From IMG/VR virus record IMGVR_UViG_3300025304_000053: a DNA stretch of 64,000 nucleotides; one strand, 5' to 3'. Positions 2,814-61,558 of the stretch are shown one piece after another; position 1 is the first letter of the stretch, and the number at the start of each line of letters is the position of its first letter. A model generated the notes under the pieces. The model searched no databases, was not told where the DNA came from, and saw only the letters and a list, made by a program, of their open reading frames with translations. The position numbers and the translations under genes are program-made. This stretch comes from a virus.

Positions 2814-3122
2814 ATGACGAAAATCACCAGCGAAACGCTGGCGATGATGCATGGCCGCCGCCTGAAGGGCGAAAGCGTCGCGGATATCGCCAGATCTTAC
2901 GGCCTGAAGGAAATGGCCGTCTACCAGCGCCTGCGCCGTAGGTATGGGCTGGAAATCTACAAGCAGCGACCGGAAGCCGCCAATGACAACGTGCCTGGCC
3001 GCGTTCGCAAAATGTCTCCGCACAACGGCGGCTGCTCAACCCTGAGCGGTATGATGCCGGTGACGCTGGCACGGGTGCCGACGATCGATGGCGATGAAAT
3101 CGGCGCGCAGGTGGCGGCATGA
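2814..3122 (+). CDS. Small HTH regulator (Cro-like position)
   Basis: ESVADIARSYGLKEMAVYQRL HTH; divergent from second repressor; strong RBS; contains AANDN and ends in VAA. Confidence 0.7.
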   Translation: MTKITSETLAMMHGRRLKGESVADIARSYGLKEMAVYQRLRRRYGLEIYKQRPEAANDNVPGRVRKMSPHNGGCSTLSGMMPVTLARVPTIDGDEIGAQVAA

Positions 3123-3424
3123 GCGAGGCTTGCGACGGCTGCGGCAGATACTTCTTCGATTACGGCGATCGCGTCCGCCTTGTACAGAACAAGGAAATCA
3201 AAGGTCAGGTGATCGGCGAGCGCGACTGGGAAACGCAGTACCTCGTTCGATTCGCGGCCAACTTGGCCTCTGACTATCTCGATCACGTCGAGATCGAGCC
3301 GGATCCGGACTTTGAGGTTCCCGGCGGATCCAAGGCGACATTGCCGGCGGAGGCTCCTGATGAGCCAATCGGCACAGCAAAAATCATCAATCTTGCGGAC
3401 GTCCGCGCAGCAGGGAGGGCTTGA
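3119..3424 (+). CDS. Hypothetical protein, SH3/KOW-like
   Basis: ATGA coupling; YGDRVRLV motif. Confidence 0.65.
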   Translation: MSEACDGCGRYFFDYGDRVRLVQNKEIKGQVIGERDWETQYLVRFAANLASDYLDHVEIEPDPDFEVPGGSKATLPAEAPDEPIGTAKIINLADVRAAGRA

Positions 3425-3427
3425 GAG

Positions 3428-4882
3428 ATGGGTAAGTTTGAAAAAGGTCAGTACGTGAGAGTTCTGCACACCGACTACCAGGAAGAATTCCCGGTTGGCT
3501 CGGTCTTCGAGGTTGGCGCCTCCTACGTTCACGGCATCGAACCGGAGGGCGAGCATTCGGATCTGTTCTTTTGCAATGAAGAAGTTGAACCCTGGCAGCC
3601 GAAGGTTGGCGACCGGGTGCGGATGGTGAAGTCAGTTGACGGGCACATCGCCGACTGCGGCGCGACTGTCGTGTTCGACGACGGTAGCCAATATCAGCCA
3701 TTCGCCATCAAATTCGACAAAGCGCAGTCGTGGGGGCATACCGCCCAAGCTAATGCTCCAGAAGGCTATGGGTACTGGGTGTCGGCAGCAGACCTAGAAC
3801 CCATCGTCGAGCCAGCCGCCCCCGTTGTCGCGCAAGCACAACCTGCGGCACTGAAGATCGAAGCCGGCAAGTTCTACAAGACGCGCGACGGTCGGAAGGT
3901 CGGGCCGATGTTTTACGAAGGTGACTACTGGAATGCAGGTTCCGGCGCCAATGGCACTCCCGGTCATTTCACTCGCTATGGCGTTAGTGCTTTCGAAGGC
4001 AGACTTCCACGCGATGAAAGTCGCGCCGAGCACGACCTCATCGCCGAATGGATCGAAGAGCCGGTTTCGACAGCCAAGCCGAAGATCGGCGATAAGGTCC
4101 GTGCTCTCGCTGACCTTATCGACGTCACCAAAGGCAACCTCTACACGGTCGGCTATGTCGACGATGAATACAACTGCATTCGCATCACGGACGACGTCGG
4201 CGACCGCCATGATCTCGATGAGGACGAATACGAGGTGGTGACGACTCCCGCAGCGGCGGCCAACAACGACAACTCGGCGCCAGCCAAGCTGCAATTTTCG
4301 TTCAAAGTTGGCGACAAGGCGAAAACTCGTGATGGCCGAGTTGTGACGATTACCCATGTGGATCAGGATGAAATGTACCCATTCGTCCACGATATGGGTG
4401 ACGGTCGATACCACGGTTTCGATGCGGGCGGAAAGTCATGCATCAATTGCGATGAAGACGACATCGTCGAGAAGATCTCGGAGCCCGCGGCCACCAATCC
4501 GAAGTTCAAGGTTGGTGATAGGGTGAGGGCGCTCGTGGGCTGGCTTGATGTTAAGATGGGTGAAGTTTACACCATCACGGAAGTAGACGAGGAAGGCGCG
4601 CGACTCTTATTTGATGAAGATGGCCAGCCGTGGAACTATATGGACAATGACGAGATTGAACTCGTTCCTCCCACCATCCCCGCCGTCGTCGCCCTGATCG
4701 AGAACGGCACGGCCAAACCGGCCACCCGCCCGAAGGTGCATCCCGACCAAGCAAGCGCCACAACGGAAGCCGAGCGCCTCGCGCTGCAGTTCCCCGGCCA
4801 GCAGTTCGGCGTCTTCGTTCTTGCGGATAGCAAGATAGCTGACGTGGTCAACGTCCCGACGGCGGTTCTGCGCGCCGCCTAA
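3428..4882 (+). CDS. Multi-repeat protein with tandem KVGD(R/K)V modules
   Basis: Five or six repeats such as KFEKGQYVRV, KVGDRVR, KIGDKVRAL, FKVGDKAK, FKVGDRVRAL. Confidence 0.8.
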   Translation: MGKFEKGQYVRVLHTDYQEEFPVGSVFEVGASYVHGIEPEGEHSDLFFCNEEVEPWQPKVGDRVRMVKSVDGHIADCGATVVFDDGSQYQPFAIKFDKAQSWGHTAQANAPEGYGYWVSAADLEPIVEPAAPVVAQAQPAALKIEAGKFYKTRDGRKVGPMFYEGDYWNAGSGANGTPGHFTRYGVSAFEGRLPRDESRAEHDLIAEWIEEPVSTAKPKIGDKVRALADLIDVTKGNLYTVGYVDDEYNCIRITDDVGDRHDLDEDEYEVVTTPAAAANNDNSAPAKLQFSFKVGDKAKTRDGRVVTITHVDQDEMYPFVHDMGDGRYHGFDAGGKSCINCDEDDIVEKISEPAATNPKFKVGDRVRALVGWLDVKMGEVYTITEVDEEGARLLFDEDGQPWNYMDNDEIELVPPTIPAVVALIENGTAKPATRPKVHPDQASATTEAERLALQFPGQQFGVFVLADSKIADVVNVPTAVLRAA

Positions 4883-4945
4883 CCCCCCAACCATCGCCAC
4901 CACAGAGAGCCGTGCGCCGACCAAGCGCACGGCGAGAGGAGACAC

Positions 4946-5266
4946 ATGACCAAGAGTAACGGAACGAAGCTGATCAACGCCATTGCGGCGAGAGAGCACG
5001 CCAACGACACCAAGCTCGGTACGCCATCAACTGACCCTATGCACGCCGCGCGCCGGCGGACCATCATGGAGCAGATGGCTGGCGGCAAGGGTTGGCGCAC
5101 CGCGCCGAAAGAACCAAAGCAGCGCGCCAACGGCCTCACGCGCGGAGAAATGAAGCGCATCAGGCGCCAGGTGGCCAATGAGCATGTCTCGGAGGTGCGC
5201 GCGCCGCAATTCATGCATAGCGCAGCTCGCCGTCGGTTTGAGGCGGAAATGGCGGTGGCGGCATGA
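4946..5266 (+). CDS. Hypothetical basic protein
   Basis: AGAGGAGAC RBS; ends in VAA. Confidence 0.7.
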   Translation: MTKSNGTKLINAIAAREHANDTKLGTPSTDPMHAARRRTIMEQMAGGKGWRTAPKEPKQRANGLTRGEMKRIRRQVANEHVSEVRAPQFMHSAARRRFEAEMAVAA

Positions 5267-5660: not shown

Positions 5661-5669
5661 GGAGACACT

Positions 5670-6634: not shown

Positions 6635-7258
6635 ATGGCCAGAATTGGCAACAGTTACCAGGCAGACTACGAGAACACCGAAAAGCAGGGCGGCGGCGGT
6701 GGCATCCTGCCGCACATGTATGCGCAGCTTCAGGCTGAGGCAATCAACCTCACTGAAACGCAGGACAAGAAGGGCTGGCAGGCTGAAATCACTTTCGAAG
6801 TTATCGAACCGGCAGAGTTCGCAAAGCGCAAGTTCTGGGCATATTGGACGATCGTCCATGCAGACGGTTTCCAGCACGGCGCCTACAAGTACGGCAAGCC
6901 CATGTTCGACCGATTCGGCTATGCGGTCGGCGAGGAAATCACCGCCGACACCGACACGGATGACCTGCTGTTCAAGTCCTTCACTGCCGAGATCGGCATC
7001 CAGATCGGCAACAAAAAGCCAGACGGCACCTTCTACAAGGACAAGAACCAGATCGAGCGGTTCTTCTTCACTCACGAAGGCGCCAAGGAGCCGGTTCCGG
7101 AGCTCGGCGTCATCGGTGACGGCACGCAGGGCAAGAAGCGCAACGAGCCAGCCGCAGCCAACGACAACCGGGCGCCGGCCGCCAATGACAACAGACAGCA
7201 GCAGGCGGCGGCAGCAAAGCCGGCTGGGTCGAAGCCGTGGGTGGCTCGTAAAGCCTAA
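6635..7258 (+). CDS. Phage ssDNA-binding protein (DUF669-like)
   Basis: Follows Sak4-like ATPase; OB-fold-like pattern; flexible tail ending KPW. Confidence 0.7.
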   Translation: MARIGNSYQADYENTEKQGGGGGILPHMYAQLQAEAINLTETQDKKGWQAEITFEVIEPAEFAKRKFWAYWTIVHADGFQHGAYKYGKPMFDRFGYAVGEEITADTDTDDLLFKSFTAEIGIQIGNKKPDGTFYKDKNQIERFFFTHEGAKEPVPELGVIGDGTQGKKRNEPAAANDNRAPAANDNRQQQAAAAKPAGSKPWVARKA

Positions 7259-7319
7259 CCAACACCACCGGCGGGCCGTCACCAGCGACCCGCCATTCGC
7301 CACCAAGAGGAGATCAGTA

Positions 7320-8171
7320 ATGGCTTATGAAGCCGAACGCAGACAGATCATGGATGCCTCGCCGCTCCGTTTTGACAATGCGTTTGTGGCCGGCGGCGCG
7401 GTAACTAGCGTCTTCACCGGCTCTAAGATCAACGACATCGATGTGTATTTTAAGTCGCGCATCGCTTTCGAGACAGGGGTCTATCAGGCCTATGAGGACG
7501 GCTTGTGGTGTGTAGCGGCCAGCAAGCGAGCCGTAACGTTCGCCGACCAGTCGAACCACATTGCGCAGCTGATGCACTTTGACTTCTTCCCGACCGCCGA
7601 GGCCATCTTTTCGGCGTTCGACTACACTATCGTCATGGGTGCGCTGGATTTAGATTCAGGCCCGAAGACCAAATGGAATCCGATAACCATTGGCTTCGAC
7701 GAGATCGGCGAAGAGCATCCCGAATCCGGCTTCATATTCCATCCAGACTTCCTGAAGCACAACAGCCAGCGCTTCCTGAAGTTCAACGCCGGCACTCGCT
7801 ACCCGCTCGCCTCCGCGACGCTAATCCTGAAATATCAGCAGCGCGGCTACACCATCGGCAAAGGCGACGTCATGAAGATCGCACTGGCAGTTCGTGGCGT
7901 GCGGATTGAGACGTGGGAAGACCTGAAAGACCAGATCGGCGGAGCCTACGGCGACAAGGTCGTGCTTGGCAACGAGGACAAGCCGTTTACGCTTGAGGCG
8001 GCGATTGATGCCTTGACGGTCGACGATACCAAGGACGAGCCGTGGGTACAACCGGCCAACGACAATATGCCGGGATCGCCTGAAGGCCTGCTTGCGCACA
8101 TAGCTGCTCTGAATGGCGTAGATTACGTGCCGCCATTGCTCGGCGATGACGGATGGCCAATGGCCGCCTAA
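7320..8171 (+). CDS. Nucleotidyltransferase-superfamily protein
   Basis: FVAGGAV...DIDVYF signature (GG..DxD); RBS AGAGGAG before ATG 7320. Confidence 0.65.
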   Translation: MAYEAERRQIMDASPLRFDNAFVAGGAVTSVFTGSKINDIDVYFKSRIAFETGVYQAYEDGLWCVAASKRAVTFADQSNHIAQLMHFDFFPTAEAIFSAFDYTIVMGALDLDSGPKTKWNPITIGFDEIGEEHPESGFIFHPDFLKHNSQRFLKFNAGTRYPLASATLILKYQQRGYTIGKGDVMKIALAVRGVRIETWEDLKDQIGGAYGDKVVLGNEDKPFTLEAAIDALTVDDTKDEPWVQPANDNMPGSPEGLLAHIAALNGVDYVPPLLGDDGWPMAA

Positions 8172-8224
8172 CCAACCTGCCTGCCGCTAACCACGGCAGG
8201 CACCACCACCAAGAGGAGACCCCC

Positions 8225-11003: not shown

Positions 11004-11488
11004 CCAGACCACCCGAATTCGACCGCGCCCTAGTCGCCTACCTGCCGGGCCTGCGTAAGCGGGCCGCGTTTGTTACGCATACCGAGGCCGAGGCGGAAGA
11101 ACTGCTGCAGGAGACAGTAGCAGACATGCTGGCATCCTGGCACCTGTGCCGCATGGAGACGTTCAAGATGTGGGCGCAACTCAAGATGTGGCAGGTTCAA
11201 TTCGACTTGCGGCAGAAGGCTGGCCGCATGAAGCGGCGGGCAGAATTCGTCGATGTGTCGCGCATCGAAGTTTCGACACCGCCGGTGCAAGAGCACGCCG
11301 TCGAGCTCGCGCAGGTCATCGCCAAACTCGCCAACATCCACAATGGCGACATCGTGCTGCGGCGCGCCTCTGGCGAACTACTGAAGGATATCGGCGCCGA
11401 GAACGGCACATCGCGGGAAAACATCCGGCAGAAAGAGGAGCGGGCCATGCGTCTGCTGCGACAGCGCACGGGGAGGGTTGCGGCATGA
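11000..11488 (+). CDS. ECF sigma70-like protein 1
   Basis: Region-2-like YLPGLRKRA...AEELLQET and region-4-like HTH GTSRENIRQKEERAMRLLR. Confidence 0.7.
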   Translation: MTRPPEFDRALVAYLPGLRKRAAFVTHTEAEAEELLQETVADMLASWHLCRMETFKMWAQLKMWQVQFDLRQKAGRMKRRAEFVDVSRIEVSTPPVQEHAVELAQVIAKLANIHNGDIVLRRASGELLKDIGAENGTSRENIRQKEERAMRLLRQRTGRVAA

Positions 11489-12012
11489 CCAACGCACCCG
11501 CCACCACCCCAGCCAACGACAACAAACCCACCGCCGCAAGGCCTGCATCCTTCGACGACCGCATCATCGCCTATCTTCCAGGCCTCTACCGCCTGGCCCG
11601 CAAACACGGCCGCCGCGGTGACGCCCGCCACGATCTCGTCAACGACACGATCGTTTACGCCTTGGAACACTGGACCAACTTCCGCGAGGACGGCGGGCTT
11701 TGGAACTGGCTGTCCTGGCAGATGCGCGGCCTGGTGAGCAATGGTGGCAAGCGCGGCACGCTGCACATCGTTGATGACCGTGACGGGATGAAAGCCGCTC
11801 GCCATGTCATGGATCCGACCCAGCAGACGCAGGCCGAGCTTTCCGAGACGCTGCGTCGGTTGCGTGGCCGCGATGGCGCTGTCCTGCTGCGCCGCGCCAT
11901 GGGCGAAGAACTGCATGTCATTGCCGGCGAACTGGGAATTTCCACGGAGCGCGTGCGGCAGCTCGAGGCGCGTGAGCGTGCGCGGCTGCGCGAGATGGGG
12001 GAGGCGGCGTGA
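11485..12012 (+). CDS. ECF sigma70-like protein 2 (paralogue)
   Basis: YLPGLYRLA...DLVNDT...ALEHWTNF; IAGELGISTERVRQLEARERARLR. Confidence 0.75.
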   Translation: MTNAPATTPANDNKPTAARPASFDDRIIAYLPGLYRLARKHGRRGDARHDLVNDTIVYALEHWTNFREDGGLWNWLSWQMRGLVSNGGKRGTLHIVDDRDGMKAARHVMDPTQQTQAELSETLRRLRGRDGAVLLRRAMGEELHVIAGELGISTERVRQLEARERARLREMGEAA

Positions 12013-12690
12013 TGGAGGATCTGTTCGCCGCCAATCAGAACACGCGTGCTGAGGACTTTTGGGCTGGACTCGACCTCAACAAGCTCCCGAAAACATCAAA
12101 GGATGCCTCAAGCTTAGGTGTAAAGTTCTTCTACACTAGCGAAGAGTGCATCCATGGCCACGATTCCCCCCAAGTACACTGCTGGCGGCAGGTGTGTTGC
12201 ATGTACTAGGATGAGCTCTGCACGGCAACAGAACAAAGAATACAAAGGCAATAACAGAGCCGCAAGGGCAAATATACAAAGAGCCATTGCATCAATGGAT
12301 ATGAAGAAAACTTATGAACCGACTAGGCCCTGCAAGCATGGCCACCTGTTGAGGTATGTAAGCTCGAATAACTGCGTCGAATGCAGTATTAATACAGCAA
12401 AAAACCGCCGCGAAAAAGCTAAGGATGAAAGACTTGTAAGATTGTACGGAATAACATCGGCTGAACGAGAGGTAATGGCGGAAAACCAGAGTTTTAAGTG
12501 CGCTATATGCAAGGAACAATTTGCCGACAATCGGTCAATGCACGTTGATCATTGTCACTCGTCTGGCGCCGTTCGCTCGCTTCTTTGCTCTCCATGCAAT
12601 CAAGGTATCGGCCTCCTCAAGGAAGACCCGGCCATCATACGGGCTGCCGCCGACTACGTAGAATTCCACGCAGCGAGGCTCGCCGCATGA
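12009..12690 (+). pseudogene. Endonuclease VII-like (HNH) nuclease interrupted by a +1 frameshift at C6 (12166-12171)
   Basis: ORF 12009 ends ...CIHGHDSP and ORF 12154 continues KYTAGGRCVAC; C-terminus has CAIC...HVDHCH...RSLLCSPCN. Confidence 0.7.
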
Positions 12691-14468
12691 CCTTCGTTCC
12701 AAGATACTACCAAGTCGAGGCCGTCGACGCGATCTTCGACTACTGGCAGGACGAGCCAGGCCATCCGCTTGTCGACATGGCCGGCGGCTCTGGCAAGTCA
12801 GGCACCATGGCCATGGTCATAAAGCGCCTTATCGAAGGTTGGCCGGATATGCGCGTTCTGTCGTGCGTCCACGTCGAAGAGTTGGTCGGCGACAATTTTA
12901 AAGAATTCATCGGCCTATGCCCATTCGCCCCTGCGGGTATTTATGCCGCCAGCCTTGGGCGCAGAGATCGGCAAGCGCAAGTCATGTTCGCGCAATTGCA
13001 AACGGTCTGGGACAAGGCGCTGGAAATCGGCCACGTCGACGTCATGATCATTGACGAGGTACATCTTGTGCCGAACGACGGCAACACGATGTATCGCAAG
13101 CTGATTGCGGCTCTTATGGCCATCAACCCTGACATGAAACTGGTCGGTTTCACCGCAACCCCATATCGTCTCGATTCTGGCCGACTTGACGAAGGTGAAG
13201 ACCGTCTTTTCGATTGCGTGGTCTATACCTACAGTCTGGCGCAGGGCATTGAGGACGGATACCTTTCCCGCCTCACCAGCAAGCCGGTTGAGACACGGTA
13301 CGACATGACAGGCGTGCATCGTCTTGGTGGCGACTTCAAGAAGTCCGACCTAGCCAAAGCGACCGACAAGGAAGAACTCACGAAGGCAGCCGTCGCGGAA
13401 ATCATGGCCGCTGCTCACGCGGAGGACAGAGGAACTGCAGTTATTTTCTGCAACGGCATAGAGCACGCCACTCACGTTCGTGATGAAATCCGTCTATACG
13501 GCAAGTCGTGTGAGGTATTAAGCGGCAAGACGCCGAAGACTGAGCGCAGGAAGATCATTGCCGATCTGAAGGCTGGTCGCCTGTGGGGGTGCACCAACGA
13601 CAATGTACTTTCGACAGGCACAAACATACCGTGCATTGATCTTGTTGCCGATATGGCACCCACAGAAAGCACAAACCGTTATGTTCAGCGCGCAGTTCGG
13701 GGCACGCGTGTAGTCTGGCCTGCTGGCTTTAAGCCAGACGAACATGACGCTGACGAGCGCAAGGCTGCAATTGCGCGCGGCCCTAAACCTAACTGCCGCT
13801 ATATGAACTTTGCGGGCAACATCGAGCGACACGGGCCTGTGGATGCAGTCAACCCGAAGAAGCCAGGCGACGGAAAGGGTGAGGCTCCAATCAAGCTTTG
13901 CCCGACCGACACAGCCGACCGCACTGGGAAGTTTGGGTGCGAGGAAATCTGCGCCGCGAGCGCTAGGGTTTGCCCGAACTGCGACTATGAATTCGAGTTT
14001 GTCGAGAAGCCGGGCTTCACGGCGCGGCCGACCGATGTTGCGATTCTGGCGACCGTGGCCGAAGAGGATTGGCGAAAGGTAACGGATAGGAAGTTCTTCC
14101 ACCATCCAGGTAAAGACGGCAAGCCGGATAGCGTCAAAATCGTCTACATGGCGGGCTATACCGCGATCAACGAGTGGACCTGTCCGGCCCATAGTGGCTT
14201 TCCCAAGACCAAGGCAGACAAGTATTGGCGAGCACACGGGGGAAAGACACCGTTCCCTAAAACGCCACTGGAATGGCTTCAGCGGCAGGGAGAGTTGAAG
14301 GAAACCGCAGAAATATCAGTCGTTCCGAACAAGAAGTATTGGAACGTCGTTGACTTCAGGGTGGGTGAACACGCCGCCAACGACAATGACGAGCCGGCGG
14401 CGAATGATAACCGGCCAGCGGGTGACGAGGATTGGCGGGCGCTGCTGGACACGGATATTCCCTTCTGA
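12687..14468 (+). CDS. Superfamily 2 DNA helicase (RadD/UvsW-like)
   Basis: GSGKS, DEVH, TATPYR, Q..VRGTR, CP..C zinc motif. Confidence 0.9.
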   Translation: MTFVPRYYQVEAVDAIFDYWQDEPGHPLVDMAGGSGKSGTMAMVIKRLIEGWPDMRVLSCVHVEELVGDNFKEFIGLCPFAPAGIYAASLGRRDRQAQVMFAQLQTVWDKALEIGHVDVMIIDEVHLVPNDGNTMYRKLIAALMAINPDMKLVGFTATPYRLDSGRLDEGEDRLFDCVVYTYSLAQGIEDGYLSRLTSKPVETRYDMTGVHRLGGDFKKSDLAKATDKEELTKAAVAEIMAAAHAEDRGTAVIFCNGIEHATHVRDEIRLYGKSCEVLSGKTPKTERRKIIADLKAGRLWGCTNDNVLSTGTNIPCIDLVADMAPTESTNRYVQRAVRGTRVVWPAGFKPDEHDADERKAAIARGPKPNCRYMNFAGNIERHGPVDAVNPKKPGDGKGEAPIKLCPTDTADRTGKFGCEEICAASARVCPNCDYEFEFVEKPGFTARPTDVAILATVAEEDWRKVTDRKFFHHPGKDGKPDSVKIVYMAGYTAINEWTCPAHSGFPKTKADKYWRAHGGKTPFPKTPLEWLQRQGELKETAEISVVPNKKYWNVVDFRVGEHAANDNDEPAANDNRPAGDEDWRALLDTDIPF

Positions 14469-19664: not shown

Positions 19665-20047
19665 CCGCCATCCCATCCCGCCCCATCCTACCGATCACAC
19701 CCACCTGCGACGACGCAGGCACACCCACCACCTGCATGGCCTGCGGCCGGATTGCATTGGGCATCGGTCGCGCCATCACCAGGGGCGGCAAGATGATCGA
19801 TCCGGGGTTCCTTTGCCGCCAGTGCGTCGTGGCGGTTTCGGATCTGTCAAAGATGGATAGGCTTTCCGTGTTTGAACTCAAGGCATTGGATGCCGGTGTT
19901 GATGCAGTAGGTGAATGGATCGCCGACAACGGCGGCGTGACAGATCTGGCGCATTACGACGAGCTCATGCAGCGCATGCTGGTGAAGGCGGCGTGGGAGG
20001 GGTGCATTCATGGGGTGAGGGAGGCTTTGAAAAGTGCGCCATTCTGA
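19661..20047 (+). CDS. Hypothetical Cys-containing protein
   Basis: CMAC...C..C; coupled. Confidence 0.6.
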   Translation: MTAIPSRPILPITPTCDDAGTPTTCMACGRIALGIGRAITRGGKMIDPGFLCRQCVVAVSDLSKMDRLSVFELKALDAGVDAVGEWIADNGGVTDLAHYDELMQRMLVKAAWEGCIHGVREALKSAPF

Positions 20048-27676: not shown

Positions 27677-27705
27677 TTGACATGTCGACCCGAACGTGGT
27701 ATACT
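27677..27705 (+). promoter_or_regulatory. Near-consensus sigma70 promoter
   Basis: TTGACA-17 nt-TATACT. Confidence 0.75.
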
Positions 27706-27818
27706 TGAAGGTTGGCCTGCCGGAGGGGGTGGGTCGATCTTCGGGACCGTCGGGCTGGGTATCGGCGTCGGGGGTTATCGTTAGTGCTAACTCAGAAAAT
27801 CCCAAGAGGTGTGGTTGC

Positions 27819-44390: not shown

Positions 44391-44810
44391 ATGACATTGC
44401 AAGAGTTTATGGCGCTGCCTCACCGATTCCGGTGGGGCGGTCAGGGCGGTGACGACTGCACGACATTCCTGGCGACGTGGATTTCTTATCGCCTTGGTGT
44501 CGATCCGGCCGAGGACCTTCGCGGAACCTATCGCGACGGCGCTGGCGCACATCGAATTCTCCAAAAGGCAGGCGGCATTGAAGCCTTCATAGCAGGCCGC
44601 CTAGCGCCGTTAGGCTTTACCCGCACTGACACGCCAGAGGATGGCGATATCGGCGTGGTGAAGGCTCCTGACGCCTATTCCGGCGACGAAGTCCACGTCG
44701 GTGCCATCCGCTTCGGCAAGCACTGGCTTGTTCTCGCGCCAGCCGGCGTTGCCTGCAAAAAACTCGATCATATCGCCGCATGGCGCATGCCTGCTGGAGG
44801 CGACAACTAA
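44391..44810 (+). CDS. NlpC/P60-like tail-tip protein
   Basis: F.WG..DC....HVG catalytic pattern. Confidence 0.75.
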   Translation: MTLQEFMALPHRFRWGGQGGDDCTTFLATWISYRLGVDPAEDLRGTYRDGAGAHRILQKAGGIEAFIAGRLAPLGFTRTDTPEDGDIGVVKAPDAYSGDEVHVGAIRFGKHWLVLAPAGVACKKLDHIAAWRMPAGGDN

Positions 44811-46993
44811 TGAGCTTCCATCATCGTATGATGCTGCAGCGCTATGGGCTGTCGCATACGACGTCGCTTTATAGCCAGGTCGTTTTTGACCCGATCTTCA
44901 CGCCGCTTTTTACGGCAATTCTCGGCGCCGGCGGGCTTGGGTTGACCGGAACCGCGCTATCGATTGGCGTGGGCGTCGCATCGGCCATTGCTACCACCGC
45001 GCTTTCCATCGGCATTCAGATGCTGATGGCGCCAAAGCCTCCGAAGCCGGAGGCGGCGAAGGTGCCGCTGACGCAACCAATCCCTTACCGCATTTGGGGG
45101 GTCGGCCGCACACGGCTGGGCGGCGCCTACATGCTCTGGGAATCGAACGGGCCAAATCTTTTTTCGGTTCAGGCTGTAGCGGCCCATCGCATCAAATCGT
45201 TCAACCGCTTCTGGCTCCATGACGACGAGGTCTTCATCCCGCCGGGGGGTGGCATCGCATCGTATCCAGGCGAAAGGTATGGCGGGAACGTCGGCATATT
45301 CTATCGCCTTGGTCTTCCAACGGAAACGGCATACCCCGGCCCTGTTTCCGCTTTCGGGGCTTCTGGCCTGTGGACGAATGACCACCGTGGGGACGGGCAA
45401 GCATCTCTTTCAATGTTCGCCTCTGCCGAAAGGCAGAAGGACCAAAACAAGCGATTTCCATACGGCCCTCCATCCCTGTCGGCAGAAGCTGATCTTGCTC
45501 TTTGCTGGGACTATCGCGACCCCGCGCAGGATCCGGAAGACCCCGAGACTTGGGAGTGGACGCGGAATTCAGCGCTGATTTGCGCTTGGCATCTCTGCTT
45601 CAACGAGTTCGGCTTCAGGCTCGACTACCAGAAAGCGATCATGCCGGTTCTCGATCTCTGGATCGAAGAAGCAGACATCTGCGACGAAGACGTGCCGTTG
45701 GCAGCCGGGGGGACGGAGAAGCGTTACGAGTGCAACGGCAGTGATACTACCGAGAACGGACCAAAGGCCGGCCTGAACGCCATTCTGGCATCTTGCGACG
45801 GCCATCTTGTGGCGCGTGGTGACGGTGCCCGCATCCTGACGGTCGGCAAGTTCCGCGAGTCTCGCTGCGTAACCCTATACGATCGGGATATCGTCGGCCA
45901 CAGCATTCAGTACGACGTGCTGTTTGAGGACGAGATCAACCGGCTTGTGCCGAAGTTCACATACCCGGCCACGGCGTATTCGACTTGCGACACGGACTAT
46001 TTCGAGGATGTGGATGCGCAGGTCTCCGCTGGACGCATCCTCTCGGAAGAGGCGAATTACCAGTGGGTCCACCAGTGGCGACAGGCTCGCCGGCTTGGTC
46101 TGCGCGACTGGAAGCGACTTCGCCAGAAGGTTAAGGGCTCGATCGATGTTCGATTCAGCGGCATTAACTCGGTCTATGCCCGTTGGGTAAGGCTCGATGC
46201 GCCGCTTCGCCTTCCGAGGCTAAACGGCAAGCTCGTAGAAAACAGACGCTCTGTCCTCGCGCTCACGCGCGGCGGTTTCTCTATGGATATTGTTCAGCAT
46301 CCTGAAGATATCGATGATTGGAACCCATTCACCGATGAAGGTACGCAGCCTCCCGTGCCGACCGCACCGGCGTCGGAAGACATCGTCGTTCCGGTCATCA
46401 ATCTGGTGCAGGCCAAGCCTAGTGCTGGTTCGGTGTACATCCGCGTGGTTATCATTGACCCTGTCGACACCAGCCTTACACCAGTCGTTCGGTATCGTGT
46501 CGCCGACATTGGCGGCGGGGTGCCTGGTGCGTGGGTGGAACAATCCTTCCCGGATGCCGCTCCAGACCTTGGCTTCATCAACCTGAACACCAACGTCGTT
46601 CCGGCAGACACGCTGCTGAATGTCCAGGTCAGCTTCCTGACATCAGGTGGGGCTTCGTCTGATTGGTCCGTGACTGCGGACATCACTTCGACGGTCGATC
46701 CTACTGCACCGGGCACTCCGGTAAGCATGACGGCACCCAACAGCGTCACCACCGTTCCTGTCAGCGCAAGAGCTGCGAACGACAACACCCGAGTGTTGAT
46801 CTTTAAGCGCGGCACAACTGTTCAGTCATACGCCGCAGCAACTGAAATCGCGCGGTACTCCGTAACGGCCAACCAGACGATTTCGTTCAGCAATACGCCC
46901 GGCGCCGGCACTTGGAAGTACTGGTGCGGCGCTGAGAACATTTCTGGCGTTCCGTCTGCCGCGCAGGCTTCGGCTACCGCGATAGTCACCTAA
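44810..46993 (+). CDS. Tail tip/central fibre (host-specificity) protein
   Basis: GRTRLGG, N.ALI..WHL, C-terminal Ig/FN3-like region. Confidence 0.8.
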   Translation: MSFHHRMMLQRYGLSHTTSLYSQVVFDPIFTPLFTAILGAGGLGLTGTALSIGVGVASAIATTALSIGIQMLMAPKPPKPEAAKVPLTQPIPYRIWGVGRTRLGGAYMLWESNGPNLFSVQAVAAHRIKSFNRFWLHDDEVFIPPGGGIASYPGERYGGNVGIFYRLGLPTETAYPGPVSAFGASGLWTNDHRGDGQASLSMFASAERQKDQNKRFPYGPPSLSAEADLALCWDYRDPAQDPEDPETWEWTRNSALICAWHLCFNEFGFRLDYQKAIMPVLDLWIEEADICDEDVPLAAGGTEKRYECNGSDTTENGPKAGLNAILASCDGHLVARGDGARILTVGKFRESRCVTLYDRDIVGHSIQYDVLFEDEINRLVPKFTYPATAYSTCDTDYFEDVDAQVSAGRILSEEANYQWVHQWRQARRLGLRDWKRLRQKVKGSIDVRFSGINSVYARWVRLDAPLRLPRLNGKLVENRRSVLALTRGGFSMDIVQHPEDIDDWNPFTDEGTQPPVPTAPASEDIVVPVINLVQAKPSAGSVYIRVVIIDPVDTSLTPVVRYRVADIGGGVPGAWVEQSFPDAAPDLGFINLNTNVVPADTLLNVQVSFLTSGGASSDWSVTADITSTVDPTAPGTPVSMTAPNSVTTVPVSARAANDNTRVLIFKRGTTVQSYAAATEIARYSVTANQTISFSNTPGAGTWKYWCGAENISGVPSAAQASATAIVT

Positions 46994-54578: not shown

Positions 54579-54582
54579 TGCT

Positions 54583-54774
54583 GTGGATGATTGGATAGAA
54601 TGGAATGGCGGCGATTGTCCGGTAGACCCCGACACGTTGGTATGCATCAGGATGCGCGATGGCGAAGAGAGCCTCCCAGAGTGGCGCATTAAAGCCAGCG
54701 GATGGTTCTGGCACCACCGCGACAGCATTGGCGACATCGTTGCGTACCTCATCATAAAGGAACCCACCAATTGA
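54583..54774 (+). CDS. Small WNGG-motif phage protein
   Basis: GGAGG SD, GTG start; WIEWNGGDCPV...DIVAY. Confidence 0.6.
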   Translation: MDDWIEWNGGDCPVDPDTLVCIRMRDGEESLPEWRIKASGWFWHHRDSIGDIVAYLIIKEPTN

Positions 54775-56015
54775 CCACACCACCACTCACCGACGAACAA
54801 CTCGACGAAGCCGTCGCCGCCCTCAAGGAACACGGCAGCCAGGTCGCAGCCGCATCCGCCCTTGGCCTCGCGCGGTCTTCTTTCCAGAACCGCCTCAGAC
54901 GGGCGGCCGAACGCGGGATGCTTGGCGTTAAGCCGGTGTTGCCGGGGTTCCGCATCAGCCAGGTGACCTCCACGCCGAATGGTGACTTCGTCCAGCAGAA
55001 GCCGGAGCGCGGCGAAGAGTGGGCGCTGCCCGACGGCCATAGCGTCAAGGGCGTCTCGGCGCTCGTCGATGCGGAAGGGCGGACGATTCAGCAATGGATC
55101 AAGACGAAGGAAGAGCCGTCGGCCGTCGATATCGCCGCGATGCTTAAGTCGGCATTCGACGACGTTGCGCCAGCTGAGCCCATTCCAGCACCTCTCGTCT
55201 CGGAAGATGACCTTCTGACGCTCACGCCCCTCGCTGACTTCCATGTCGGTCTCTTCGCGTGGCATCGCGAAACCGGCGCGAACTGGGATCTGTCGATCGC
55301 CGAGCGAGTTATCGGTTCCGCTCTCGACGACTTGATTGCCAGAACTCCGCCGAGCGGTCATGCCATCGTTTTGGGCGGAGGCGATCTGCTCCACAGTGAT
55401 TCTAACGAGAACAAGACGGCAAAGTCTGGCAACGTCCTTCAGGTCGATGGGCGTTACCAGAAGGTGCTGATGACCGCCTGCAGGCTGGTCGTGCGCGCCA
55501 TTGACGCCAACCTCGCCCGCCACGGTCACGTGACCGTCCGTGTCTTGCCAGGCAATCACGACGAACACGCATCAGTCGCCGTCGCCTATTTCCTTCTGGC
55601 TTGGTACCGCAACGAGCCGCGGGTGACTGTCGACGTAGACCCGTCGCTGTTCTTCTGGTTCCGCTTCGGAAAGGTGCTGCTCGGGGCGACGCACGGCCAC
55701 ACCGTCAAGCTCAAAGATATGGCCAGTATCATGGCCCACCGCCGCGCTGAAGACTGGGGCGCGACGGTCCACCGGTTCATTCACGGGTTCCACATCCACC
55801 ACTCGAGCAAGTACGCGACAGAAGGCAATGGCGTGATTTCGGAATCGCACCAGACGCCTACGCCGCAGGACGCTTGGCACTGGGGCGCCGGCTTCTTGTC
55901 CGGTCGGTCGATGCAGGCGATCTCGTATCATCGCGAGTTCGGGGAAGTTTCGCGCGTGCGGGTCGCCATGATGGATGCGGCCAATGACAACGTGCCGTCG
56001 CGAGCGGCCGCGTGA
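54771..56015 (+). CDS. Calcineurin-like metallophosphoesterase with N-terminal HTH
   Basis: DFH, GGDLLH, GNHD, HGH, GFHIHH motifs. Confidence 0.85.
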   Translation: MTTPPLTDEQLDEAVAALKEHGSQVAAASALGLARSSFQNRLRRAAERGMLGVKPVLPGFRISQVTSTPNGDFVQQKPERGEEWALPDGHSVKGVSALVDAEGRTIQQWIKTKEEPSAVDIAAMLKSAFDDVAPAEPIPAPLVSEDDLLTLTPLADFHVGLFAWHRETGANWDLSIAERVIGSALDDLIARTPPSGHAIVLGGGDLLHSDSNENKTAKSGNVLQVDGRYQKVLMTACRLVVRAIDANLARHGHVTVRVLPGNHDEHASVAVAYFLLAWYRNEPRVTVDVDPSLFFWFRFGKVLLGATHGHTVKLKDMASIMAHRRAEDWGATVHRFIHGFHIHHSSKYATEGNGVISESHQTPTPQDAWHWGAGFLSGRSMQAISYHREFGEVSRVRVAMMDAANDNVPSRAAA

Positions 56016-57686: not shown

Positions 57687-58253
57687 ATGGAAATCGTAGG
57701 CACACTTAGAAACGCGCGCCGTGTCAGCGCGAGGGAAGACATGCGTGGTCCCTGCCTTTACGGGCAGGTCTACGGCGATACGAAGGGCCGCTTCCTGGAC
57801 GGCGAGTACATCACCACCAGCACAATTATGAGCGAGGACGGGGACCTCTTCAAAACGCGCTACAGCGCCTACAAGGTCGAGCATTGGGCTGGCCAGCCGA
57901 GCAAGCCGGTTGTTGCTGCGAATGACAACTACTCCGACCTGCGCGCTGCAAACGTCGCGCGCCAGAAAGAGTGGGACGGCGACGACCAGATTGACCTGGC
58001 CTATCGCGGCAATGAACTCGCCGGCGAAGTTGGCGAGGCTTGCAACGTCATCAAGAAACTCGAGCGCGAGCGCCGTGGTATCGCAGGCTCTCGCGACACC
58101 GTCGCGCATCTGGCCGAGGAACTTGCTGACATCATCATCTGCACCGATCTGGTGGCAATGCAGGCCGGTATCGACCTGAACAAGGCGGTCGCCGCCAAGT
58201 TCAACGCCACGAGCGAGAAGGTCGGGCTTCGCACCCGCTTGGTGGCGGCATGA
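57687..58253 (+). CDS. MazG-like nucleotide pyrophosphohydrolase
   Basis: ELAGEVGE...EELAD...AKFN in C-terminal half. Confidence 0.82.
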   Translation: MEIVGTLRNARRVSAREDMRGPCLYGQVYGDTKGRFLDGEYITTSTIMSEDGDLFKTRYSAYKVEHWAGQPSKPVVAANDNYSDLRAANVARQKEWDGDDQIDLAYRGNELAGEVGEACNVIKKLERERRGIAGSRDTVAHLAEELADIIICTDLVAMQAGIDLNKAVAAKFNATSEKVGLRTRLVAA

Positions 58254-58465
58254 ACTACGGACAGGCTATTGAGGCCATGAAGGCTGGAAAGCCAGCGAGA
58301 CGCACCGCCGCCGGATACGTGCATCTCGCTCACCGCGGCACACCGCTGCAGTATCTCGAAGCCGTTGTCGCTGGCGAGGGGCGCAAGCCATACATCCCGT
58401 CGATAGACGACCAACTGGCGGAAGACTGGCAGGTGCCGCAGGCGCCCGTGAAGGAGGCTGCGTGA
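58250..58465 (+). CDS. DUF2829 / Tad2-like protein
   Basis: NYGQAIEAMKAGK..RR...PYIPS..DQLAEDW. Confidence 0.65.
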   Translation: MNYGQAIEAMKAGKPARRTAAGYVHLAHRGTPLQYLEAVVAGEGRKPYIPSIDDQLAEDWQVPQAPVKEAA

Positions 58466-59067
58466 TGTACGTGTTCAGAAACGAATCTCCTGTGCCGGTC
58501 GAACTCTCTACCACCACCTTCGGCCCGCTCGACAAGTACGTCGCCGCCAACGACAACGTGCCGCAGGATGAAAGCGGCCAGTCGGCTGGATTTGGGTTCG
58601 CCTCCATCCGCGGCGAACTGGGCAGCGGCAAGCCATACCTCTATAGCGAGGAGGAGCTTGCCGCCAAGGAAGACCCTCTGGCAGCTATCGCCAACCTGCC
58701 TGGCTTCATCTATCTCGGCTCACCTTACGCCAAGTACCATGCTGGCATGGACGAGGCCGCGCGCGTCGTCACGCAATGCGCCGGCAAGCTTATGGCTCGC
58801 GGCCTGCGGATCTACTGCCCGATTGCACACGGTCACGCCGTGACGCGCCATCAGGAACTACCGCGCACCTGGGATTACTGGAAAGACCAGGATCAGCCTT
58901 TGATCGATGCAGCCTCGGCGCTCATCGTTCTCGAAATGCGCGGTTGGTGGGATTCGGTCGGTCTCAAGTACGAGTTCGAGTCGTTCTTGGCCGCAGGCAA
59001 GCCGATTGTCTATCTCGAGCCGTATGATCTTGGCGTGTTCGAACGGGGTGTGCGGAGGTCGGCGTGA
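58462..59067 (+). CDS. DUF1937-like (nucleoside deoxyribosyltransferase-fold) protein
   Basis: YLGSPY, PIAHGH, GWWDSVG...E. Confidence 0.65.
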   Translation: MMYVFRNESPVPVELSTTTFGPLDKYVAANDNVPQDESGQSAGFGFASIRGELGSGKPYLYSEEELAAKEDPLAAIANLPGFIYLGSPYAKYHAGMDEAARVVTQCAGKLMARGLRIYCPIAHGHAVTRHQELPRTWDYWKDQDQPLIDAASALIVLEMRGWWDSVGLKYEFESFLAAGKPIVYLEPYDLGVFERGVRRSA

Positions 59068-60110: not shown

Positions 60111-60439
60111 AGCTTGCGGTTATTGGCAGTCGCGGGTTCCGTGACCATCGCCTTATGCATGAACGTCTCTCAGAGATGCGGCCAACACTTGTCATAAGCG
60201 GCGGCGCTAAGGGCGCAGACCAAATGTCGGAGACGTGGGCGCGGCGAATCGGCGTGCCCACCCAGATTTTTCTGCCAGACCATAAGACGTACAAGCACGC
60301 CTTCCACCATCGCAACCGCCTAATAGCCGAAGCTTGCGATCATCTGATGGCGTTCTGGGACGGATCATCGACTGGGACCAAATACACGATTGGTTACGCT
60401 CGCCGGATCGGCAAGCCGGTAACCGTGGTGAGATATTGA
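60107..60439 (+). CDS. SLOG-superfamily (DUF2493/YspA-like) protein
   Basis: VIGSR, SGGAKGAD, RNRLI, FWDGSSTGT. Confidence 0.8.
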   Translation: MKLAVIGSRGFRDHRLMHERLSEMRPTLVISGGAKGADQMSETWARRIGVPTQIFLPDHKTYKHAFHHRNRLIAEACDHLMAFWDGSSTGTKYTIGYARRIGKPVTVVRY

Positions 60440-60450
60440 GAGGAGGCATT

Positions 60451-60669
60451 ATGACAGAGAAAAAGTGGACGAACTGGAACGGCGGCAAGTTCCTGCCGGT
60501 GCCAGAGCAATCGATCGGCGACGTGCGCCTGCGCTGCGGCAAGGTGCTGACCGGCATCAAGGCCGGCGACGTGCTGTGGGGCCGCGCCAAGCGGGAAGTC
60601 GCGGCAAACGACAATGACAGCAACGGCGGTGAGATCGTCGCGTATTGTTTCGAGGGGGAGGCGGCGTGA
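60451..60669 (+). CDS. Small WNGG-motif phage protein
   Basis: WTNWNGG...EIVAY; GGAGG SD. Confidence 0.6.
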   Translation: MTEKKWTNWNGGKFLPVPEQSIGDVRLRCGKVLTGIKAGDVLWGRAKREVAANDNDSNGGEIVAYCFEGEAA

Positions 60670-60878
60670 TGGGAGGCGGGGATCGAAAGCGCCTGCGACT
60701 GGACTACATCGGAGCCAGCATGGCCGGAGACAACCGGCACGCCTTGGCGATCATGCAGGAGCTTGGCGTGCGATGGTCATCCGCGACGCCGCAGCCTATC
60801 GCGGACTGTTGGATATTTGATGACTGCACCGACGTCCCATCAAAACTTCCTTCATATGTAGAGGAGACCACACCATGA
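60669..60878 (+). CDS. Small hypothetical protein
   Basis: Coupled ORF. Confidence 0.55.
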   Translation: MGGGDRKRLRLDYIGASMAGDNRHALAIMQELGVRWSSATPQPIADCWIFDDCTDVPSKLPSYVEETTP

Positions 60879-61558
60879 CCCTAGCATCTGAAGACTCCGG
60901 CTGCATCACCGAAGTGCCGGCCGCCAACGACAATATCCCGGCGGAGATACGTGCACTCGGCGCGGCGATCGGGAAATATCCAGAAGGCACGCCATCCTCG
61001 TCGTTCGACCTGCCGGCCAATGACAACAACCTACCGCCAATCGTCGCTTTCACAGGCCAGGCTGGCAGCGGCAAGTCGACTGCGACGCGCTATCTCGTCG
61101 AGCAGCACGGCTACACGCTGGTGAAGTTCGCAGGGCCGCTCAAGGACATGATGCGGGCGATCGGCCTTGACGAACGTCAGATTGAAGGCGACCTGAAAGA
61201 GACGCCGTGCGAATGGCTGCAAGGTCGGACTCCCCGCCACGCCATGCAGACCTTGGGCACTCAGTGGGGGAGGGACTGCATAGGGAAGGACTTCTGGATC
61301 GAGTTGTGGGTGAGGAGCGCCAACATCATCATGCACGACGGCGGCCGCGTCGTGGTCGACGACTGCCGGTTCCCGAACGAGGCAAAGGCTATCCGCGAGC
61401 TAGGCGGCGATATCTTCCGCCTTGTCGGGCGGGGGGGCATTGCCGGCAACCACGAATCGGAGCGCGGGTGTGGCGATGAGGATCTGGTCATCGCCAATAA
61501 CAACACGACGGCCGAGTTGTTCAACAAGGTTGACGATGCGTTGAGGCGGTATGGGTGA
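60875..61558 (+). CDS. Deoxynucleoside monophosphate kinase
   Basis: GQAGSGKST, FAGPLK, R.AMQTLGTQWGR, DDCRFPNE. Confidence 0.88.
   Translation: MTLASEDSGCITEVPAANDNIPAEIRALGAAIGKYPEGTPSSSFDLPANDNNLPPIVAFTGQAGSGKSTATRYLVEQHGYTLVKFAGPLKDMMRAIGLDERQIEGDLKETPCEWLQGRTPRHAMQTLGTQWGRDCIGKDFWIELWVRSANIIMHDGGRVVVDDCRFPNEAKAIRELGGDIFRLVGRGGIAGNHESERGCGDEDLVIANNNTTAELFNKVDDALRRYG

What the first reader, a model, noticed from the sequence alone, without database searches (positions are those of the whole stretch)
2976..61030. Prophage-wide mimicry of the alphaproteobacterial SsrA (tmRNA) degradation tag: ANDN motifs and -AA termini
Seen: ANDN (usually AANDN) occurs 23 times in 18 unrelated proteins (Cro-like 2976, SSB x2, NTase, sigma-like 2, helicase x2, both MTases, primase, VRR-NUC, late regulator, GIY-YIG x2, TMP x2, tail tip, phosphoesterase, MazG, DUF1937, 60451, dNMP kinase x2), plus ANNDN in 3428. 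It sits mostly in linkers or termini. Codons vary freely (aac/aat, gac/gat, gcc/gca/gcg/gct), which points to selection on the peptide rather than a DNA repeat. 22 proteins end in -AA. Several combine both: the phosphoesterase ends AANDNVPSRAAA, the N6-MTase ends AANDNSPAGDLFTTRAATVAA, 60451 ends AANDNDS...GEAA, and the EndoVII ORF ends HAARLAA. Established: the Caulobacter tag is AANDNFAEEFAVAA and rhizobial tags begin ANDN and end LAA; the SspB-alpha adaptor binds the N-terminal tag part and ClpX reads the C-terminal AA. Inference: the phage wires much of its proteome into host SspB/ClpXP, either for programmed turnover or as decoys that saturate SspB/ClpXP (which also control CtrA and the cell cycle).
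Basis: partly seen in the sequence, partly recalled or inferred. Interest (0 to 1): 0.9.

Follow-up and report, generated by a model that had tools for sequence, protein, structure and literature searches.

The report
Phage proteins with built-in ssrA-tag mimics
A temperate rhizobial phage related to phage 16-3 encodes the two conserved parts of its host's tmRNA "destroy-me" tag (Ala-Ala-Asn-Asp-Asn and a final Ala-Ala) in the loose ends of about a third of its proteins, which probably ties their lifetime to the host SspB-ClpXP protease, though no binding or degradation has been measured.

Summary
ANDN occurs 23 times in 18 of 87 proteins, against 0.16 expected, and it is the top tetrapeptide (p=2e-41). 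Every site is in the coding phase with freely varying synonymous codons, and none is on the other strand. A Sinorhizobium genome sample has 1 ANDN in 115,000 residues. Twenty-two of 87 proteins end in Ala-Ala, against 3.6% in that sample. The excess survives correction for stop-start overlaps.

New here:
- ANDN proteins end in AA far more often than others (30/58 against 40/331).
- In nine related elements, 24 of 83 ANDN sites lie 10-15 residues from the C-terminus (1.8 expected). Native alphaproteobacterial tags are 10-13 residues long.
- In the exonuclease family the AANDN head, the A/AA end and the length are kept while the middle varies. Homologues from lytic phages stop where the tail begins.
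- Lytic relatives on Pseudomonas, Vibrio, Xanthomonas and Variovorax have neither mark.

Peptide-level tag mimicry is solid. The decoy idea is speculative. The DNA comes from a rhizosphere metagenome, so "prophage" and the host are inferred.

This scan has already noted the same phenomenon on other DNA (21 notes from at least 19 genomes matched my look-up). I found no published description.

The parts
2814..3122 (+). HTH (Cro-like) protein, 102 aa. AANDN at nt 2979-2990 (residue 56), after the HTH at residues 15-44. Ends QVAA.
   Evidence: ANDN is kept in 5 of 6 sequences in the alignment (the window plus 4 of 5 orthologues) while the flanks vary.
6635..7258 (+). Two AANDN at nt 7157 and 7181 in a Pro/Ala/Gln-rich C-terminal linker.
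   Evidence: ANDN is present in all six sequences in the alignment.
7314..8171 (+). Unknown protein (phrog_18122; start uncertain). PANDN at nt 8055, 38 residues from the end. Ends PMAA.
11485..12012 (+). Sigma-70-like protein. PANDN at nt 11512 (residue 10), before region 2 at residues 29-84. Ends GEAA.
12154..12690 (+). Endonuclease VII. No ANDN. Ends HAARLAA, whose last five residues equal those of the host-type tag ANDNYAEARLAA.
12552..14468 (+). Superfamily-2 helicase (the true start is probably near 12690). Two AANDN at nt 14376 and 14400, 30 and 22 residues from the end and beyond the helicase domains (residues 48-386). Ends DTDIPF.
   Evidence: The paired motif is kept or degenerate (ENDN, ANNN, SNNN) in 5 of 6 aligned sequences.
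18384..19664 (+). N6/N4 DNA methyltransferase. Its tail reads AANDN (nt 19602), then SPAGDLF, then TTRAATVAA: tag head, a clamp-binding-like DLF, and an AA end.
   Evidence: Of 120 homologues, 101 have ANDN in the last 40 residues, 114 have [DSQ][LM]F and 106 end in AA.
20034..21281 (+). C5 cytosine methyltransferase. AANDN at nt 20052 (residue 7), before the domain that starts at residue 13. Ends RRAA.
22137..24467 (+). Prim-Pol/DUF3987 primase. VANDN at nt 24414, 17 residues from the end. Ends WVA.
24779..25321 (+). VRR-NUC-type protein (orthologues are annotated so in 16-3 and X2_25). Ends AANDNSQKYSLTNL, with ANDN at nt 25280 and a 13-residue tail that lacks an Ala end. The orthologues end in AA instead (GALAA, KKNAA).
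26270..27010 (+). Orthologue of 16-3 p107 (late regulator-like). AANDNIAWPLATAL at nt 26429, inside a conserved block, so possibly structural.
27696..28478 (+). Two RYANDN at nt 27828 and 28380, possibly an internal repeat. Ends REAA.
39669..42821 (+). Tape measure protein. Starts MANDN (nt 39672) and has AANDN at nt 42642.
44780..46993 (+). Tail fibre protein. AANDN at nt 46775 lies inside the conserved fibre domain and is shared with the motif-poor phage RHph_TM3_3_3, so it is probably incidental.
54702..56015 (+). DNA repair exonuclease (metallophosphoesterase; phrog_704 covers residues 29-423). Ends AANDNVPSRAAA (ANDN at nt 55980). This is a full-length tag mimic, 11 residues from ANDN to the end.
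   Evidence: Tail 425-437 has pLDDT below 50 after the last strand. 97 of 120 homologues have ANDN 10-15 residues from the end (94 at 11-13), and 91 end in AA. Homologues from lytic phages stop where the tail starts.
57687..58253 (+). MazG-like pyrophosphohydrolase. AANDN at nt 57918 (residue 78), before the domain at residues 110-181. Ends LVAA.
58462..59067 (+). DUF1937 protein. AANDNVP at nt 58546 (residue 29), before the domain at residues 83-184.
60334..60669 (+). Unknown 111-aa protein. AANDN at nt 60604, 21 residues from the end. Ends GEAA.
60875..61558 (+). dNMP kinase. AANDNIP at nt 60923 and PANDN at nt 61016 in the N-terminal extension, before the P-loop domain that starts at residue 56.
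   Evidence: The second site is kept in the window, 16-3 and X2_25.

Best explanation
The phage genome encodes, in frame, imitations of the tmRNA (ssrA) tag of its rhizobial host. The head [A/P]-A-N-D-N sits in unstructured tails and linkers. It copies the junction that arises when Ala-charged tmRNA adds ANDN... to a stalled chain. The end is a C-terminal Ala-Ala (often VAA, EAA or AAA).

Shown: these are peptide-level signals under selection. They are linked within proteins, and where they form a complete C-terminal tail they have the length of a native tag.

Inferred: the head docks on the host adaptor SspB-alpha and the Ala-Ala end enters ClpX. Many non-structural phage proteins (replication, nucleases, methylases, sigma factors, nucleotide enzymes) would then be ClpXP substrates, with half-lives set by host SspB/ClpXP capacity. 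For a temperate phage this would erase leaky lytic proteins in lysogens and clear early proteins after use.
For: 1. Enrichment and specificity: 23 sites against 0.16 expected, the top tetrapeptide, and all four positions specific. The host-type genome sample has 1 in 114,759 aa.
2. Peptide level: 23 of 23 sites in phase 0, none on the minus strand, synonymous codons as in the genome. In phage 16-3 the motif follows the coding strand into the leftward operon.
3. Match to the tag: likely hosts encode ANDNYAEARLAA or ANDNNAKGYAVAA. 18 of 24 sampled alphaproteobacterial tags read ANDN + 4-7 variable residues + AA, 10-13 residues in all. Position -1 is Ala in 67 of 107 pooled sites (p=7e-36), matching the Ala donated by tmRNA.
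4. Coupling: 30 of 58 ANDN proteins end in AA against 40 of 331 others (odds ratio 7.8, p=1e-10).
5. Geometry: 24 of 83 ANDN sites lie 10-15 residues from the C-terminus (1.8 expected), and 22 of those 24 proteins end in Ala.
6. Selection: in 120 exonuclease homologues the head, the end and the length (11-13) are kept while the middle varies. Lytic-phage homologues end exactly where the tail begins. Orthologue alignments show the motif retained in diverging flanks.
7. Location: every site that could be mapped against a Pfam domain lies outside it, and the exonuclease tail has pLDDT below 50.
8. The receptor exists: sspB (PF04386) is present and adjacent to ssrA in three host-type genomes. The protein is a close homologue of the solved SspB-alpha structures 2nys, 2qas and 2qaz.
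9. VAA is the C-terminal degron of E. coli RseA(1-108), which is listed as an SspB/ClpXP substrate (PMC8138137).
Against:
- Only one window protein has a tail of native tag length. Most motifs are 17-60 residues from the end, N-terminal or internal, and 9 of 18 ANDN proteins lack an AA end.
- Pro is strongly preferred two residues after the motif (40%), unlike the Sinorhizobium tag, although some native alpha tags have Pro near that position.
- The determinants of SspB-alpha binding are cited from memory; Lessner 2007 and Chien 2007 were not held.
- The host of this metagenomic phage is unknown.
By my recollection the Pseudomonas tag reads ANDDN rather than ANDN. I did not check either point.
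Confidence: 0.6

Rival explanations
1. Decoy or saturation. The motif-bearing proteins are not meant to be degraded. After induction they titrate SspB-alpha and ClpXP by mass action. This would stabilise other phage proteins or block host ClpXP functions such as tmRNA-tag clearance and cell-cycle proteolysis.
For: Many motifs are internal or N-terminal, and half of the ANDN proteins lack an AA degron. Some proteins carry two heads (SSB-like protein, helicase, dNMP kinase). Phages are known to target this node: Pseudomonas phage pf16 encodes an SspB homologue (PMC5587285).
Against: The strong coupling of head and AA end in the same proteins, and the tails of native tag length, are what a substrate needs and a decoy does not. 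A single abundant decoy would be simpler than marking about 30 proteins. This reading is compatible with the best explanation as a secondary effect.
Confidence: 0.15
2. The motif is a docking motif for another hub. [A/P]ANDNxP would be a short linear motif read by a different host or phage protein, for instance to gather replication and nucleotide enzymes into one assembly. The likeness to the tag head would be coincidental.
For: The tails carry other docking motifs: a clamp-binding-like DLF/QLSLF in the MTase and an SSB-tip-like D-x-IPF on the helicase. The Pro preference at +2 is not a feature of the Sinorhizobium tag.
Against: A coincidence would have to cover five residues including the tmRNA-donated Ala, the link to AA ends, and the 10-13-residue geometry. 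The window encodes no SspB-like protein. The phage trypsin-like protease had no match in the 60 kb fetched from the motif-rich G022 element.
Confidence: 0.12
3. The Ala-Ala ends are a by-product of gene packing. They would arise from GC-rich spacers between a Shine-Dalgarno sequence and an overlapping ATGA or GTGA start (for example AAGGAGGCGGCGTGA, which reads KEAA*), and would not be a signal.
For: 13 of the 22 AA ends have an [AG]TGA stop-start overlap, and several read as SD plus spacer.
Against: With the same overlap, host-type genes end in AA in 4 of 95 cases against 13 of 35 here (p=6e-6). Non-overlapping ends are also enriched, 9/52 against 9/269. Five lytic phages, three of them with similar GC content (0.58-0.62), have 1 AA end in 350 ORFs. 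AA ends are linked to ANDN.
Confidence: 0.04
4. GCNAAYGAYAAY is a DNA- or RNA-level signal (a protein binding site, a priming site or a packaging-orientation site) that merely happens to be translated.
For: The motif is strictly on one strand of the window.
Against: All 23 sites are in codon phase 0. The only variable bases are the wobble positions, with genome-like codon use. In 16-3 the motif switches strand with the genes. The flanking preference is at the amino-acid level: Ala or Pro at -1 with mixed codons.
Confidence: 0.02

Closest known systems
Native tmRNA (ssrA) tag read by SspB-alpha and ClpXP in alphaproteobacteria (Caulobacter tag AANDNFAEEFAVAA, PMC9393093; Sinorhizobium ANDNYAEARLAA)
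   Same: Same head (A)ANDN, same Ala-Ala end, and the same overall length (10-13 residues) in the complete tails. The middle is variable in both.
   Different: The mimics are encoded in the gene rather than added by trans-translation. The head is often used alone, far from the C-terminus or at the N-terminus. They mark dozens of intact, functional proteins rather than failed translation products.
E. coli RseA(1-108): a genome-encoded SspB-dependent ClpXP substrate with an internal SspB-binding site and a VAA C-terminus (listed in PMC8138137)
   Same: A natural protein that combines an adaptor-binding segment with an -AA degron some distance away. Seven window proteins end in VAA.
   Different: RseA binds SspB through a sequence unrelated to the tag head (my recollection of Flynn 2004). 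It is a single regulatory substrate exposed by cleavage, not a proteome-wide mark.
Engineered adaptor-dependent degrons (for example DAS+4, used with SspB for controlled proteolysis; PMC3064785)
   Same: Modular use of the SspB-binding head with a tunable C-terminal end to set protein stability.
   Different: Those are synthetic. Here the design appears to have evolved naturally and spread over many genes of a phage lineage.
Phage interference with the SspB/ClpXP node (SspB homologue gp18 of Pseudomonas phage pf16, PMC5587285)
   Same: A phage engaging the same host proteolysis pathway.
   Different: pf16 carries an adaptor gene. This phage has no SspB homologue and carries the adaptor's ligand instead.

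Membership tests
ssrA-type degradation tag (SspB-binding head plus ClpX C-terminal degron) | Head identical to the host tag head, including the tmRNA-donated Ala (A-A-N-D-N) | tested here: met
   23 ANDN sites, 16 of them AANDN. Tags of likely hosts and of 20 of 24 sampled alphaproteobacteria begin with ANDN.
ssrA-type degradation tag (SspB-binding head plus ClpX C-terminal degron) | C-terminal Ala-Ala-COOH | tested here: met
   22 of 87 proteins, and 9 of the 18 ANDN proteins. Enriched against the host-type sample and other phages.
ssrA-type degradation tag (SspB-binding head plus ClpX C-terminal degron) | Head and end separated as in a native tag (10-13 residues in total) | tested here: inconclusive
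   In the window this holds only for the exonuclease (11 residues); the VRR-NUC tail has 13 residues but no Ala end. In nine related elements, 24 of 83 sites are at 10-15 residues against 1.8 expected, and 97 of 120 exonuclease homologues are at 10-15, 94 of them at 11-13. Most window sites are further from the end.
ssrA-type degradation tag (SspB-binding head plus ClpX C-terminal degron) | Added co-translationally by tmRNA | tested here: not met
   The motif is encoded in frame in the genes. These are therefore mimics, not true ssrA tags.
ssrA-type degradation tag (SspB-binding head plus ClpX C-terminal degron) | Binds SspB-alpha | not testable with these tools
SspB is present in host-type genomes next to ssrA.
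ssrA-type degradation tag (SspB-binding head plus ClpX C-terminal degron) | Confers ClpXP-dependent degradation | not testable with these tools
   Needs half-life measurements in wild-type, sspB and clpX backgrounds.
Short linear motif in disordered protein regions | Lies outside folded domains, with the motif conserved in diverging flanks and evolutionary gain and loss | tested here: met
   All sites that could be mapped lie outside Pfam envelopes. The exonuclease tail has pLDDT below 50. Exceptions are the tail fibre site and perhaps the 26270 and 27696 ORFs.
DNA repeat or regulatory DNA motif | Occurrence independent of reading frame, with sequence conserved at the nucleotide level | tested here: not met
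   23 of 23 sites in phase 0, with wobble positions varying.

The most novel reading that the evidence does not exclude
Proteome-wide pre-tagging could work as a proteolytic threshold switch for a temperate phage. At the low, leaky expression of a lysogen, SspB-ClpXP would erase every tagged lytic protein. On induction, mass synthesis of some thirty tagged proteins would saturate SspB/ClpXP, so all of them would be stabilised together (coupled degradation). At the same time the host would lose ClpXP-dependent tag clearance and cell-cycle proteolysis. The tag mimic would then be both a safety catch for lysogeny and a host-takeover device.
Probability: 0.2. Interest if true: 0.9.

Novelty: new variant of a known kind. 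Interest (0 to 1): 0.78.

Why it matters
Encoded ClpXP degrons and adaptor-binding sites are known for single proteins. I found no report of a virus that writes both conserved parts of its host's tmRNA tag into a large share of its proteome.

If the inferred wiring holds, three things follow:
- It would be a clear bacterial-virus case of the short-motif mimicry that eukaryotic viruses are known for.
- It would show how temperate phages use host proteolysis to keep lytic genes silent at the protein level.
- It would supply a natural library of SspB-alpha/ClpXP tags of graded strength.

The idea is directly testable, because phage 16-3 and Sinorhizobium meliloti are a long-studied phage-host pair.

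Tried and rejected
There is no in-silico binding test.
- The search of protein representatives was not accepting jobs. I looked at distant exonuclease homologues through named phage records instead.
- Lessner 2007 and Chien 2007 (PNAS) were not held. I did not find or request Chien 2007 (Structure). SspB-alpha tag determinants therefore rest on my memory.
- No whole genome is held for the window, so a related Sinorhizobium genome served as the host-type background.
- DNA-motif reading: rejected by phase locking.
- Stop-start overlap as the cause of AA ends: tested, and it explains only part of them.
- Phage-encoded SspB: none at E<=10. No SspB-like ClpX-docking tail on any phage protein.
- Phage trypsin-like protease (52008-52733) as the reader of the motif: it had no match in the 60 kb fetched from the motif-rich G022 element.
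- Analogous AANDE clusters in 151 sampled Pseudomonadota genomes: none seen among the listed matches or in the five genomes re-checked. This is a weak negative, because taxon labels are hidden and 154 matches were not listed.
- Flank hydrophobicity is only slightly below background, 0.26 against 0.32.
- Literature searches for ANDN, AANDN, ssrA-like motifs in phages, and the AP-16-3 paper found no prior description.
- The unpublished genome G246 appears only in the 40-of-41 tmRNA tally.

Full report
**What the window is.** Nearly all genes from 2.8 to 61.8 kb run on the + strand. A cI-type repressor (HTH_3 + Peptidase_S24) lies at 691-1449 (-) and a tyrosine integrase at 62483-63877 (-). TerL is 90-92% identical to those of Rhizobium phage 16-3, Sinorhizobium phage AP-16-3 and RHph_X2_25. 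The helicase is 73% identical to those of AP-16-3 and NV1.1.1. There is no tRNA or tmRNA gene and no host flank. No genome is held for the window, and its DNA is found in rhizosphere metagenome runs. It is therefore a temperate 16-3-like phage genome. 'Prophage' and the exact host are inferred.

ANDN occurs 23 times on the + strand and never on the - strand, in 18 of 87 genes.
- Composition predicts 0.16 sites. 2000 shuffles gave a mean of 0.17 and a maximum of 3.
- ANDN is the most over-represented tetrapeptide (p=2e-41), followed by AAND.
- No single-position variant occurs more than twice.
- All 23 copies of GCNAAYGAYAAY are in codon phase 0. Of the 26 + strand AAYGAYAAY nonamers, 25 are in phase 0 and one is outside the genes. 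Codon choice at the motif resembles genome-wide choice.

Selection therefore acts on the peptide. In phage 16-3 the motif moves to the minus strand where the genes do.

**Backgrounds.**
- 400 kb of Sinorhizobium sp. CB7 has one ANDN in 114,759 residues.
- 16-3 has 18 sites and X2_25 has 20.
- Related prophages in Sinorhizobium sp. CB7, Shinella and Pseudohoeflea have 7, 10 and 3 sites per 22 kb.
- Three more elements found by scanning 61 genomes of the same family have 16, 6 and 4 sites.
- Lytic phages that share the helicase module but infect Pseudomonas, Vibrio, Xanthomonas or Variovorax have none, and they show no ANDD or ANDE excess either. A Sulfitobacter phage has one site, and the unrelated Rhizobium phage TM3_3_3 has two.

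**Ala-Ala ends.** 22 of 87 proteins end in AA (7 VAA, 6 EAA, 3 AAA), against 3.6% in the host-type sample and 1 of 350 ORFs in the five other phages. Thirteen of the 22 have an [AG]TGA stop-start overlap, and some read as a Shine-Dalgarno sequence plus spacer. Even so, overlap genes end in AA in 13/35 cases here against 4/95 in the host sample (p=6e-6). Non-overlap genes do so in 9/52 against 9/269 (p=6e-4).

**Match to the tag.** tmRNA genes of three host-type genomes encode ANDNYAEARLAA (twice) and ANDNNAKGYAVAA, and sspB lies next to ssrA in all three. That SspB is a close homologue of the solved alpha-type SspB structures. In a sample of alphaproteobacteria, 20 of 24 readable tags begin with ANDN and all end in AA. 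Eighteen of them are ANDN + 4-7 variable residues + AA, 10-13 residues in total.

The phage copies exactly the invariant parts:
- Position -1 is Ala in 67 and Pro in 25 of 107 pooled sites. This reproduces the Ala that charged tmRNA donates, a feature visible only at the protein level.
- ANDN proteins end in AA in 30 of 58 cases against 40 of 331 (odds ratio 7.8, p=1e-10). Orthologues are not independent, so the p-value is generous.
- Of 83 ANDN sites in nine elements, 24 start 10-15 residues from the C-terminus (1.8 expected, mode 11-13, none closer). 22 of those 24 proteins end in Ala.

**One family in depth.** The window's exonuclease ends ...VAMMD-AANDNVPSRAAA.
- Among its 120 closest cluster representatives (64-100% identity; Rhizobium, Agrobacterium, Ensifer, Bosea, Ochrobactrum, Mesorhizobium), 97 have ANDN 10-15 residues from the end, 94 of them at 11-13.
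- 91 end in AA and 115 end in A, while the residues in between vary freely.
- Homologues in lytic phages of E. coli, Klebsiella, Rhodobacter and Dinoroseobacter end a few residues after the conserved GE[VT]xR core, roughly where the tag-like tail begins here. The Vibrio and Roseobacter homologues have different C-termini. None carries a tag-like tail.
- An AlphaFold model built on 48 homologues puts the tail (residues 425-437) at pLDDT below 50, after the last strand.

The N6-methylase family behaves alike. Of 120 homologues, 101 have ANDN in the tail and 106 end in AA.

**Location and exceptions.** Wherever Pfam envelopes exist, the motif lies outside them. Orthologue alignments show it retained in diverging flanks, with gains and losses. 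A few sites look incidental or structural: the tail fibre site, the two RYANDN sites in the 27696 ORF, and perhaps the site in the 26270 ORF.

**Mechanism.** The sequence-level mimicry is shown. The next step is inference from the established SspB/ClpXP pathway: the head docks on SspB-alpha, the AA end enters ClpX, and protein lifetime becomes dependent on the host protease. The head-end coupling and the tag-like geometry favour substrates over pure decoys. The marks are concentrated in the early genes and the right-arm accessory genes: 1.7 and 1.6 motifs per 1000 aa, against 0.4 in the packaging and structural block. They are absent from the lytic relatives examined. This fits a role in keeping lytic functions short-lived in a temperate life cycle. 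Saturation effects on the host remain possible.

**Limits.**
- Most window motifs are not at tag distance from the C-terminus.
- Pro is preferred two residues after the motif in 40% of sites. This is only partly matched by native tags of other alphaproteobacteria.
- The primary SspB-alpha papers could not be read.

**Prior notice.** Earlier notes of this scan describe the same phenomenon on other DNA; 21 notes from at least 19 genomes matched my look-up. I found no published description.

Noticed in passing
window 14451-14468; L001, L002, L006-L008 orthologues: The helicase ends in an acidic D-x-[IV]-P-F tip (DTDIPF here; DDEVPF, DDSVPF, DDGIPF, DDDIPF in relatives). By my recollection this resembles the C-terminal tip of bacterial SSB (DDDIPF). 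It is an odd feature for a helicase to carry itself.
   Followed up: partly
window 19602-19664 (N6-MTase tail); 8153-9280 (beta clamp): The methylase tail holds a clamp-binding-like motif between ANDN and the AA end (DLF here; QLSLF or ADLF in homologues; 114 of 120 homologues). The phage encodes its own DNA polymerase III beta clamp, which suggests that methylation is coupled to the replication fork.
   Followed up: partly
window 14536-15708: The phage encodes an RtcB RNA ligase. A 90% identical copy sits in the G022 prophage on the opposite strand from its neighbours.
   Followed up: no
L011/L016, L012/L015, L013/L014: sspB lies about 150-250 bp from the tmRNA gene in all three host-type genomes examined (Sinorhizobium sp. 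CB7, Shinella, Pseudohoeflea).
   Followed up: partly
window 52008-52733: A phage-encoded trypsin-like serine protease (Trypsin_2). It is shared with 16-3 and X2_25, where it is annotated, and has a homologue in G034. It had no match in the 60 kb fetched from G022. Its substrates are unknown.
   Followed up: partly
window 1-1449 and 62483-64000: The repressor is at the left end and the integrase at the right end, with no host DNA. The window reads like a circularly permuted phage genome from a rhizosphere metagenome rather than an integrated prophage.
   Followed up: partly
NP1, VpKK5, DoCa3, VPv64 and M39 genomes (L042-L056): Only 1 of 350 called ORFs in these five phages ends in Ala-Ala, below the roughly 1.3% expected from composition and the 3.6% of the host-type sample. 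This hints that ordinary phages avoid AA ends.
   Followed up: no
window 27828 and 28380 (ORF 27696-28478): The same hexapeptide RYANDN occurs twice, 184 residues apart, in a protein with no Pfam or PHROG match. It may be an internal repeat rather than a linker motif.
   Followed up: no
G195, several contigs: One genome of the phylum sample carries the identical 15-mer GCCGCTAATGATGAA (AANDE) on six different contigs. This looks like a dispersed repeat or a multi-copy gene.
   Followed up: no
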